DNA of 64,000 bases. Source: the human T2T-CHM13v2.0 reference genome, Homo sapiens. The notes beneath the pieces are model-generated. The model was given only the letters and a program-made list of their open reading frames with translations, searched no databases and was not told the origin of the DNA. Every line of letters starts with the position of its first letter. The first letter of the stretch is position 1. Both the position numbers and the translations under genes were made by a program. The stretch spans positions 24,928,001-24,992,000 of the forward strand of contig CP068257.2 in assembly GCA_009914755.4 (NCBI GenBank). The letters run 5' to 3'. Shown piece by piece: positions 2,830 to 3,475 of the stretch.

Positions 2830-3475
2830 AAAACCGCGTGCGGCTGGAAGTGCGCGGGTTTCTGCCGTCGCCTCGCGGAAAAGGCAGAAGCGTCTGCAAA
2901 GGTCCTTCTGCAAAGGTCCCGGTCCGTCCAGCTCAACCCACGTTAGCCCGGACCGTGACCCAAGGGCAGCCCCGAGCCTCTGACCCTCTCCGCCGCCCTC
3001 CGTCACTGACCTGCGTAGACAAAGAGCAGGACCAACTTCGGAAGCAAGACCCCTGGACGCACGGGTAGCCTCGGAGCGTCCATCCAAGCCGGTGGCCTGA
3101 GGCTTGGAGCGAAGGGAGAGCCCGGAACCGGAGGGAATGGGGAGGATGGAGGGCGATCAGATGGAGAGAGCAGCGCTCCTGAGAGCCGGGTGGAGCAGAG
3201 ACCCGGCCATTGCCTAGGGAGCCTTCCAAGGGAGCCCGGGCCGGGCGCGTCCCGGGCCAGCGACTGCGGGACTCCGCGGAGCTGGGGCGCCCGTGGCCCG
3301 AGACGGGCTGCGCTGGGGGCCCAGGTCTCTTTGTCTCGCCCCACTGCGCTCAGGCGCGGGGAAGGCGGCCACTCCGGCGTCCTTGGCCACCCAGGCTCAC
3401 ATTTCATCTCCGCGGGTGGCAACGACTGCGGGCAGGGGGCGGGGGTGGCCCCGACTCCTCCCCAAGCCCGGGTTC
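2830..3475. promoter_or_regulatory. CpG island, probable TATA-less promoter of an unidentified gene or lncRNA
   Basis: About 650 bp with very high G+C and dense CpG (ccgcgtgcgg, tgcgcggg, ccgtcgcctcgcgg, gggcgcgtcccggg, ctcaggcgcgggg). Sp1-type GC box gggggcgggggtgg at ~3436-3449. Flanked on both sides by AT-rich CpG-depleted DNA. No TATA box seen. Confidence 0.8.

What the first reader, a model, noticed from the sequence alone, without database searches (positions are those of the whole stretch)
2830..3475. Isolated CpG island at the left edge looks like a TATA-less promoter, with the remaining ~60 kb a repeat-filled intron or gene desert
This is the only CpG-dense, GC-rich, repeat-free block in the window. 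It has a GC box (gggggcgggggtgg, ~3436) and a G-run cluster (gggcagggggcgggggtgg) with G-quadruplex potential, and no TATA box. That combination is typical of housekeeping-type or bidirectional promoters. Downstream there is no convincing exon, only old transposons, so any + strand transcript starting here would have a very large first intron, or the island drives a minus-strand or non-coding transcript. The 202-aa minus-strand ORF inside it (3003-3611) is Pro/Gly/Arg/Ser-rich and is best explained by GC composition, not coding
Basis: partly seen in the sequence, partly recalled or inferred. Interest (0 to 1): 0.55.

Follow-up and report, generated by a model that had tools for sequence, protein, structure and literature searches.

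The report
CpG-island promoter of human CYYR1
The GC-rich block is the already-known CpG-island promoter and first exon of the human chromosome 21 gene CYYR1, read on the minus strand, so it is a real but ordinary feature.

Summary
Window 2830-3475 has 69% GC, CpG o/e 0.79 and 61 CpGs, against 37% GC and o/e 0.23 for the whole window. It is the only island of 300 bp or more, has no TATA box, has one Sp1 GC box, and shares no sequence with the rest of the window. It is the 5' end of CYYR1 on the minus strand. Two published human CYYR1 exon-1 primers and a published 'CYYR1 promoter' methylation-PCR primer pair all map uniquely inside it. The last 24 codons of the 202-aa ORF equal residues 1-24 of NP_443186.3 and end at a splice donor (3011|3010). 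The primer mapping places the window at hg19 chr21:27,942,177-28,006,176 and the annotated start at about 3427, just downstream of the GC box. Dog, bat and gundi have an island at the same position. The gene runs leftwards off the window, so the 60 kb to the right is upstream intergenic DNA towards ADAMTS1, not an intron. That DNA contains Alu and L1 copies but also ancestral unique sequence. The G-quadruplex claim fails a canonical-motif test. Side finding: a 17-codon upstream ORF in the 5' leader is conserved in start, stop and length in six placentals.

The parts
2830..3475 (.). CpG island (2731-3550 by sliding-window criteria)
   Evidence: GC 0.69, CpG o/e 0.79, 61 CpG, against a window background of 0.37 / 0.23. 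Orthologous islands are present in dog, gundi and bat.
3449..3463 (-). Conserved promoter block GGGGAGGAGTCGGGG, upstream of the GC box
   Evidence: Identical in human, dog and bat, near-identical in gundi, and present at the 5' end of rodent cDNA L006. The 25-bp bin 3475-3451 scores 0.80 conservation. Which factor binds it was not tested.
3436..3444 (-). Sp1/KLF-type GC box (CCCCGCCCC in the sense of the gene), about -9 to -17 from the annotated start
   Evidence: Exact consensus match. Conserved in dog and bat, and present as a CACCC-type variant in rodent cDNA L006.
3427..3427 (-). Annotated transcription start (Ensembl ENST00000435845; hg19 chr21:27,945,603, +/-1) in an initiator-like context cgcAgt
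   Evidence: Back-calculated from the published promoter window chr21:27945104-27947103, defined as -1500/+500 around the TSS, and from the offset given by the mapped MSP amplicon. No direct TSS data were available.
3385..3421 (-). Conserved element TGCCACCCGCGGAGATGAAATGTGAGCCTGGGTGGCC just downstream of the annotated start. It contains an upstream ATG (3407-3405) that is in frame with the CYYR1 start in human.
   Evidence: Near-identical in human, dog, bat (ATG changed to AAG) and two rodent cDNAs. The reading frame downstream of it is not conserved.
3011..3427 (-). CYYR1 exon 1 (417 nt, made up of a 344-nt 5'UTR and 73 nt of coding sequence)
   Evidence: Published exon-1 primers match exactly at 3153-3174 and 3026-3050. 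The 5' limit comes from the annotated TSS and the 3' limit from the donor site.
3277..3362 (-). Published methylation-specific PCR amplicon 'assay108 (CYYR1)', hg19 chr21:27945452-27945538
   Evidence: Both primers map uniquely to the in-silico bisulfite-converted minus strand. This anchors window x to hg19 chr21:x+27,942,176.
3157..3210 (-). 17-codon upstream ORF ([17 protein letters not shown], stop TGA) in the 5' leader, with G at -3 and +4
   Evidence: Same start, stop and ungapped 54-nt length in human, dog, bat, gundi and two rodent cDNAs.
3011..3083 (-). First coding segment: ATG at 3083-3081, 24 codons for [24 protein letters not shown] (signal peptide), plus the first base of codon 25
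   Evidence: Identical to residues 1-24 of NP_443186.3 / Q96J86. Most conserved stretch of the region at 0.79-0.96. The start context GGCCACCGGCTTGGATGG is almost invariant in six species.
3005..3013 (-). 5' splice site CAG|GTCAGT (exon ends at 3011, phase 1)
   Evidence: Read directly from the sequence. Conserved in dog, bat and gundi. Rodent cDNAs join exon 1 to exon 2 at exactly the orthologous base. Human codon 25 (Asp, GAY) requires the split.
1..3010 (-). Start of CYYR1 intron 1, which runs off the left edge of the window
   Evidence: [quoted passage not shown] Collinear with dog and gundi intron 1.
3476..64000 (.). Upstream intergenic DNA on the ADAMTS1 (telomeric) side, containing Alu and L1 copies and ancestral unique sequence
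   Evidence: Gene order APP-CYYR1-ADAMTS1. About 12 Alu copies. L1 ORF2 and ORF1 remnants. 3476-7900 aligns to dog and bat. No Rfam family was found.

Best explanation
[quoted passage not shown] RNA polymerase II starts in the island at about window 3427, probably from several dispersed sites, just downstream of a conserved Sp1/KLF GC box and with no TATA box. The 417-nt exon 1 carries a 344-nt GC-rich leader and then the ATG at 3083. The leader holds a conserved 17-codon upstream ORF. After the ATG come 24 codons of signal peptide, and the exon is spliced at 3011|3010 into the large intron 1, which leaves the window on the left. The ~60 kb to the right is the upstream intergenic region towards ADAMTS1. 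Published work reports that methylation of this island is variable in tumours and accompanies loss of CYYR1 expression. Shown here: the identity of the locus, the strand, the exon 1 coding part and donor, and the positional conservation of the island and core motifs. Inferred: the exact TSS (taken from an annotation, not from data), Sp1 dependence, and any regulatory role of the uORF.
For: (1) The published human CYYR1 exon-1 primers GCTGCTCTCTCCATCTGATCGC and GTCTTGCTTCCGAAGTTGGTCCTGC (PMC1863428) each match once, exactly, on the minus strand at 3153-3174 and 3026-3050, with 0 matches in the shuffles. (2) The MSP primers of 'assay108 (CYYR1)' (PMC4811509 supplement) map uniquely to the bisulfite-converted minus strand at 3277-3295 and 3345-3362. 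The 86-bp amplicon fits the published hg19 interval chr21:27945452-27945538, strand -1. (3) Minus-strand 3083-3012 translates to [24 protein letters not shown], which equals residues 1-24 of the 154-aa sequence held as NP_443186.3 / UniRef100_Q96J86 CYYR1_HUMAN. It is followed by CAG|GTCAGT, and two rodent cDNA assemblies splice at exactly the orthologous base. (4) The promoter window published for ENST00000435845 (-1500/+500 around the TSS) puts the annotated start at window ~3427, 9 nt downstream of the GC box. (5) Dog, gundi and bat CYYR1 loci are collinear with the window. Each has a CpG island around exon 1 of 940, 1070 and 750 bp with o/e 0.80-0.81, which is essentially the only island in about 100-120 kb. 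(6) Conservation peaks fall on minus-strand features: start context, coding exon and donor at 0.79-0.96, plus the uORF, the GC-box flanks and the block after the TSS. (7) Literature: CYYR1 is a 107-kb gene with 4 small exons, a signal peptide and broad expression. Promoter methylation is prognostic in neuroblastoma. Hypermethylation with re-expression after 5-aza-dC/TSA is reported in lung adenocarcinoma.
Against: No transcription-start, chromatin or methylation data could be examined directly. The TSS position is back-calculated from one Ensembl transcript through a paper's supplement. One rodent cDNA (L006) extends upstream of the GC-box homologue, so start sites may be dispersed or differ between species. 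The lung-adenocarcinoma primers were not available, so I could not show that their 'CYYR1 promoter' assay lies in this island. The oligo and peptide matches cannot separate human from another great ape. Green monkey is excluded, because its leader translation differs at several residues.
Confidence: 0.97

Rival explanations
1. Bidirectional promoter: besides CYYR1 on the minus strand, the island also launches a + strand transcript into the 60-kb upstream region, either a divergent lncRNA or unstable upstream-antisense RNA.
For: Established knowledge: most mammalian CpG-island promoters initiate divergently and give short upstream antisense RNAs. The 400-500 bp just upstream of the island (3600-3900) is conserved about as well as the promoter core, at around 0.7 across three species.
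Against: No exon-like conservation peak and no long ORF was found on the + strand in 3476-7900. Rfam found nothing. None of the papers read describes a divergent partner, and CYYR1-AS1 is named only in passing in 9 papers. Expression could not be tested with these tools.
Confidence: 0.2
2. One reading: the island is the promoter of a + strand gene whose first intron is the ~60 kb of repeat-rich DNA to the right.
For: Only that the island sits at the left edge with a long exon-poor stretch to its right.
Against: Every mapped feature is on the minus strand: the exon-1 primers, the start codon, the signal peptide, the splice donor, the MSP strand annotation and the orthologous gene models. The literature places the next gene on that side (ADAMTS1) as a separate, more telomeric locus.
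Confidence: 0.02
3. The 202-aa minus-strand ORF, or its ATG-initiated 132-codon part from 3407, encodes a real N-terminally extended CYYR1 proteoform in humans.
For: The ATG at 3407-3405 has G at -3, lies downstream of the annotated TSS, and is in frame with Met1 with no stop. Gene predictors produce similar [17 protein letters not shown] extensions in green monkey, marmot, false killer whale and warthog.
Against: The frame is broken in dog, terminated after 27 codons in both rodent cDNAs, and the ATG is lost in bat. The marmot extension corresponds to a different human frame. At 70% GC an open run of 108 codons has roughly a 13% chance per frame (my estimate from base composition). All orthologues share the MDA.RLP start. 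The ATG is only 20 nt from the annotated cap site, and an extension would bury the signal peptide.
Confidence: 0.05
4. The block is a GC-rich repeat, a satellite or a compositional fluctuation with no promoter function.
For: None beyond its GC richness.
Against: It has no similarity to any other part of the window and no tandem repeat. It is positionally conserved as an island in three other placentals. It also contains a verified exon of a known gene.
Confidence: 0.01

Closest known systems
The annotated CYYR1 promoter CpG island and exon 1 (human chr21q21; NM_052954 / ENST00000435845; Vitale et al., PMC1863428; MSP assay108 in PMC4811509)
   Same: This is the same locus. Primers, the bisulfite amplicon, the N-terminal peptide, the strand, the hg19 coordinates and the neighbouring gene order all agree.
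   Different: Nothing differs as far as tested. The only additions here are descriptive: which motifs of the island are conserved in dog, bat and gundi, and the conserved uORF.
Generic TATA-less, Sp1 GC-box CpG-island promoters of broadly expressed genes
   Same: No TATA box, a consensus GC box next to the start, an initiator-like start context, a CpG o/e of about 0.8 that persists across mammals, and 5' ends of cDNAs that vary in position.
   Different: There is only one consensus GC box, and it lies unusually close (-9 to -17) to the annotated start. The gene is not a strict housekeeping gene, because the island becomes methylated and the gene silenced in tumours. Sp1 binding was not tested.
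Short conserved upstream ORFs that act independently of their peptide sequence (leaky-scanning or reinitiation type translational control)
   Same: An AUG in good context in a transcribed leader, a short ORF ending 70-120 nt before the main AUG, and start, stop and length kept across six placentals while the peptide drifts.
   Different: No ribosome-occupancy or reporter evidence exists here. The conservation could instead reflect a DNA- or RNA-level element. A predicted pangolin protein appears to fuse this ORF to the main frame.

Membership tests
CpG island (Gardiner-Garden and Frommer criteria) | Length >= 200 bp, GC >= 50%, CpG observed/expected >= 0.6 | tested here: met
   646 bp, GC 0.692, o/e 0.79. 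The sliding-window region is 2731-3550 (820 bp, GC 0.63, o/e 0.77).
Human CYYR1 gene, 5' end | Contains the published exon-1 sequence of the CYYR1 mRNA | tested here: met
   Two exon-1 primers designed on NM_052954 / AP001696 match exactly and uniquely on the minus strand.
Human CYYR1 gene, 5' end | Encodes the N-terminus of the CYYR1 protein, followed by a splice donor | tested here: met
   24 of 24 residues are identical to NP_443186.3 / Q96J86, followed by CAG|GTCAGT in phase 1, which is consistent with Asp25.
Human CYYR1 gene, 5' end | Genomic position chr21q21 on the minus strand, next to ADAMTS1 and collinear with orthologous loci | tested here: met
   The MSP amplicon coordinates give window = hg19 chr21:27,942,177-28,006,176. 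The window is collinear with dog and gundi CYYR1 loci. The gene order comes from PMC3216298.
CpG-island (TATA-less) RNA polymerase II promoter | An annotated or measured transcription start lies inside the island | tested here: met
   The annotated TSS of ENST00000435845 back-calculates to window ~3427. Rodent cDNA 5' ends fall in the orthologous region. No direct human TSS data were available.
CpG-island (TATA-less) RNA polymerase II promoter | No TATA box, with GC box(es) near the start | tested here: met
   No TATAWAW in 2700-3700 on either strand. GGGGCGGGG is at 3436-3444 and is conserved in dog and bat.
CpG-island (TATA-less) RNA polymerase II promoter | Unmethylated, with H3K4me3 and Pol II, in expressing normal tissue | not testable with these tools
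   Indirect evidence only. The MSP amplicon inside the island is methylated in a minority of low-stage neuroblastomas (1 of 27 stage 1 tumours in cohort I) and in more of the older or high-risk cases. The lung-adenocarcinoma paper reports less methylation in normal lung epithelial cells.
Bidirectional promoter | A second transcript starts on the opposite strand within about 1 kb | not testable with these tools
   No expression data were available. There is no + strand exon-like conservation or ORF in 3476-7900.
G-quadruplex-forming promoter element | Four runs of G3 or more separated by loops of 1-7 nt | tested here: not met
   The regular-expression scan of both strands in 2500-4000 found none. 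The cited string has three G3+ runs plus GG.
Regulatory upstream ORF | An AUG-initiated ORF inside the transcribed leader, upstream of and separate from the main ORF | tested here: met
   Human 3210-3157 lies inside exon 1 as annotated. It is present in spliced rodent cDNAs L006-L009.
Regulatory upstream ORF | Evolutionary conservation of the start, the stop and the frame | tested here: met
   6 of 6 placentals have 17 codons with invariant ATG and TGA. There are 0 gap columns in the uORF against 165 of 409 in the whole leader alignment. It is absent in platypus.
Regulatory upstream ORF | Ribosome occupancy, and an effect on translation of the main ORF | not testable with these tools
   No Ribo-seq or reporter data were available. 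No paper in the library mentions both CYYR1 and uORF.

The most novel reading that the evidence does not exclude
The CYYR1 5' leader carries a 17-codon upstream ORF (window 3210-3157, minus strand). Its start codon, stop codon, strong initiation context and exact length are kept in human, dog, bat, gundi and two other rodents, while its peptide sequence drifts. This may be an undescribed translational gate on CYYR1 that does not depend on the peptide. In hominoids and some other mammals it would be combined with a conserved cap-proximal AUG that happens to be in frame with the main ORF.
Probability: 0.4. Interest if true: 0.25.

Novelty: already known. Interest (0 to 1): 0.1.

Why it matters
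For the scan, this resolves the finding as an annotated promoter of a known protein-coding gene, so nothing new needs explaining. It also corrects the orientation. The gene leaves the window to the left, and the long repeat-bearing stretch is upstream intergenic DNA in the CYYR1-ADAMTS1 interval, not an intron. The island has some practical relevance, because its methylation has been used as a prognostic marker in neuroblastoma and is reported to silence CYYR1 in lung adenocarcinoma. The motif-level conservation map (GC box, two flanking blocks, start context) and the conserved uORF are small additions that could guide reporter or Ribo-seq work on how CYYR1 expression is controlled.

Tried and rejected
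- Rfam scan of the whole window at gathering thresholds found no family.
- A 40-aa query around Met1 found no candidate. That was misleading, because only cluster representatives are indexed and the representative of the human cluster is a squirrel protein with a different N-terminus.
- The lung-adenocarcinoma paper has no supplement held, so its MSP and EpiTYPER primers could not be mapped.
- The 2014 paper on the CYYR1 multi-transcript locus (doi 10.1007/s11033-014-3480-2) is not held, so alternative first exons and the position of CYYR1-AS1 could not be checked.
- Horse, cotton rat, elephant, rabbit and sheep loci returned no DNA because the gene range exceeds 100 kb.
- The turkey gene model uses a different first exon that does not encode the MDA.RLP start, so it said nothing about the island.
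- The first MAFFT alignment misplaced the gundi promoter, so I redid it with local-pair alignment.
- A G-quadruplex was considered and rejected on the canonical motif.
- A second island at 55-57 kb was considered and rejected. That block is CpG-depleted and is an insertion nested in an L1.
- Pfam gave nothing for the 164-aa ORF in that block, and gave only weak hits for most L1 fragments.
- The Alu probe sequence was written from memory and used only as a probe.

Full report
**Observation.** The window is AT-rich, CpG-depleted mammalian DNA (GC 0.371, CpG o/e 0.227). The flagged block, 2830-3475, has GC 0.692, o/e 0.79 and 61 CpGs. A sliding scan with the standard thresholds gives a single region of 300 bp or more, 2731-3550. 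The two other ~200-bp stretches that pass overlap Alu copies. The GC box GGGGCGGGG is at 3436-3444. No TATAWAW is present on either strand between 2700 and 3700. The island matches nothing else in the window, whereas 17.8% of the window does, and it holds no tandem repeat. The 202-aa minus-strand ORF at 3003-3611 exists. Two details fail. There is no canonical four-run G-quadruplex motif on either strand. A second GC-rich block exists at 55.25-56.75 kb, but it is CpG-poor.

**Identity.** On the minus strand the sequence reads ATG (3083-3081), then 24 codons giving [24 protein letters not shown] plus one base, then CAG|GTCAGT at 3011|3010. The stop codon of the 202-aa ORF lies inside that intron sequence. 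I recognised the peptide as the N-terminus of CYYR1 and treated that as a lead to be tested.
- Two exon-1 primers published for the human CYYR1 mRNA (PMC1863428) match exactly and uniquely on the minus strand, at 3153-3174 and 3026-3050.
[quoted passage not shown] Its first 24 residues equal the window's translation.
- A neuroblastoma methylation study lists MSP assay108 (CYYR1) with its primers, the amplicon hg19 chr21:27945452-27945538, strand -1, and a promoter window chr21:27945104-27947103.
- After in-silico bisulfite conversion, both of those primers map uniquely to the minus strand, at 3277-3295 and 3345-3362.

It follows that window coordinate x corresponds to hg19 chr21:x+27,942,176, and that the window is in + orientation. 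That paper defines promoter windows as -1500/+500 around Ensembl TSSs. The annotated start of ENST00000435845 is therefore hg19 27,945,603 (+/-1), which is window ~3427. It is an initiator-like cgcAgt, 9 nt downstream of the GC box in the sense of the gene. Exon 1 is then 3427-3011 (417 nt), with a 344-nt leader.

**Orientation and surroundings.** CYYR1 is described as a 107-kb gene of four small exons with three large introns. Its body runs leftwards, so window 1-3010 is the beginning of intron 1. The ~60 kb to the right is upstream of the gene. The literature gives the gene order APP, CYYR1, ADAMTS1 towards the telomere. The right-hand DNA is therefore the CYYR1-ADAMTS1 intergenic interval, not an intron of a transcript starting in the island. 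Its contents include:
- About 12 Alu copies, 70-91% identical to an AluY-like probe.
- L1 remnants on the minus strand at about 8.4-11.6, 33-36.6 and 59.6-62.3 kb. ORF 10144-10539 matches human LINE-1 ORF2p residues 536-663 with E = 1e-40. RVT_1 and L1 ORF1 domain hits support the others.
- A + strand L1 around 54-58 kb, interrupted by a 1.6-kb GC-rich insertion.

However, window 3476-7900 aligns to dog and bat at about 65-80% apart from one primate-specific Alu. 'Only old transposons' is therefore too strong. I found no exon-like conservation peak, no Rfam family and no credible ORF there.

**Conservation.** Orthologous loci were retrieved for dog, gundi and a Pteropus bat. All three are collinear with the window. 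Each has a CpG island around exon 1: 940 bp in dog, 1070 bp in gundi and 750 bp in bat, with o/e 0.80-0.81. In each locus of about 100-120 kb it is essentially the only island. Platypus exon 1 also lies in CpG-rich DNA, but that whole locus is GC-rich. In a four-species alignment the strongest conservation falls on the start-codon context, the coding part of exon 1 and the donor (3100-3001, 0.79-0.96). Secondary peaks fall on GGGGAGGAGTCGGGG (3463-3449), on the GC box, and on TGCCACCCGCGGAGATGAAATGTGAGCCTGGGTGGCC (3421-3385). All of these are minus-strand features of one promoter and first exon.

**The long ORF.** The ATG at 3407-3405 is in frame with Met1 in human, with 108 open codons between them. 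Gene predictors give similar [17 protein letters not shown] extensions in green monkey, marmot, false killer whale and warthog. Against a real extension:
- The frame is broken in dog.
- The ATG is lost in bat.
- The ORF stops after 27 codons in two spliced rodent cDNAs.
- The marmot extension reads a different human frame.
- Every orthologue shares the MDA.RLP start.

At this GC content an open run of 108 codons is not unusual.

**Function.** The best-supported reading is an ordinary TATA-less, GC-box CpG-island promoter driving CYYR1. Start sites are probably dispersed, because one rodent cDNA begins upstream of the GC-box homologue. Published work reports broad expression. The amplicon inside this island is variably methylated in neuroblastoma, with prognostic value. 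Promoter hypermethylation, with re-expression after 5-aza-dC plus TSA, is reported in lung adenocarcinoma, although I could not map that study's primers. CYYR1 itself is a signal-peptide-bearing, single-pass PPxY adaptor for WWP1-type ligases. I had no direct TSS, chromatin or methylation tracks, and I cannot exclude divergent + strand transcription, which is common at such promoters.

**Side finding.** The leader contains a 17-codon upstream ORF (3210-3157, G at -3 and +4). It has the same length and invariant ATG and TGA in human, dog, bat, gundi and two rodent cDNAs. In a six-species leader alignment 165 of 409 columns contain gaps, but none of the 54 uORF columns does. The longest ungapped run, 66 columns, is the uORF with its immediate flanks. 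Variable columns by codon position are 14, 8 and 9 of 16, so the peptide itself is not constrained. No paper in the library mentions both CYYR1 and uORF. This fits a peptide-independent regulatory uORF but does not prove one.

**Verdict.** The feature is already known and of low interest.

Noticed in passing
window 3157-3210 (minus strand); L001 about 9841-9894; L002 about 9838-9891; L003 about 4828-4881; L006 and L007-L009 leaders: A 17-codon upstream ORF in the CYYR1 5' leader has invariant ATG and TGA, G at -3 and +4, and the same ungapped length in six placentals. The peptide sequence drifts. It is absent in platypus, and it is not mentioned in any paper in the library together with CYYR1.
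   Followed up: yes
window 3385-3421 (minus strand), including the ATG at 3405-3407: A block of about 37 bp just downstream of the annotated start is nearly identical in human, dog, bat and two rodents. Its ATG is in frame with CYYR1 in human, and automated annotation turns it into 239-269-aa 'isoforms' in monkey, marmot, whale and warthog. The frame is not conserved, so it looks like a DNA- or RNA-level element and not coding sequence.
   Followed up: partly
protein P0031 (Manis pentadactyla, 254 aa): The predicted pangolin protein contains MARSPREPPLGSAAFPS followed by DRPP... That looks like the uORF fused by a frameshift to the main reading frame. It could be a real exception to the uORF's conservation or an assembly or annotation error.
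   Followed up: no
window 3005-3013 and the orthologous sites in L001-L003: The exon 1 donor has C at intron position +3 (GTCAGT or GTCGGT) in all four species, instead of the usual purine. This uncommon donor variant has been kept for roughly 90 million years.
   Followed up: no
window about 55120-56750: A 1.6-kb block that is GC-rich (52-65%) but CpG-depleted, with a 70-bp unit repeated 2.5 times (55791-55963), is inserted into the endonuclease-coding part of a + strand L1. L1 sequence is recognisable on both sides. Pfam finds nothing in its 150-164-aa ORFs. It is probably an LTR-type or other retroelement, but I did not identify it.
   Followed up: partly
window 63000-64000: Another moderately GC-rich (0.48), CpG-depleted (o/e 0.11) stretch lies directly upstream, in minus-strand sense, of L1 ORF1 remnants at 61.7-62.3 kb. 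It is probably an old L1 5'UTR. This was not tested.
   Followed up: no
window 3600-3900, 4200-4300 and 4500-4600: AT-rich blocks just upstream of the island are conserved in dog and bat, and also in the more divergent gundi (0.6-0.7 identity in 100-bp bins). They are possible proximal regulatory elements of CYYR1.
   Followed up: partly
window 45721-45828 and 50313-50417: Long tetranucleotide arrays, (AAGG)n with about 27 copies and (TCCT)n with about 26 copies, each adjoin an Alu copy. There are also (GT)n and (AC)n runs at 29499 and 59047.
   Followed up: no
L004 (platypus CYYR1 locus): The platypus gene spans only about 10 kb, against about 100 kb in placentals, and lies in uniformly GC- and CpG-rich DNA (GC 0.57, o/e 0.64). 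The isolated-island architecture therefore appears only in the placental loci examined here.
   Followed up: no
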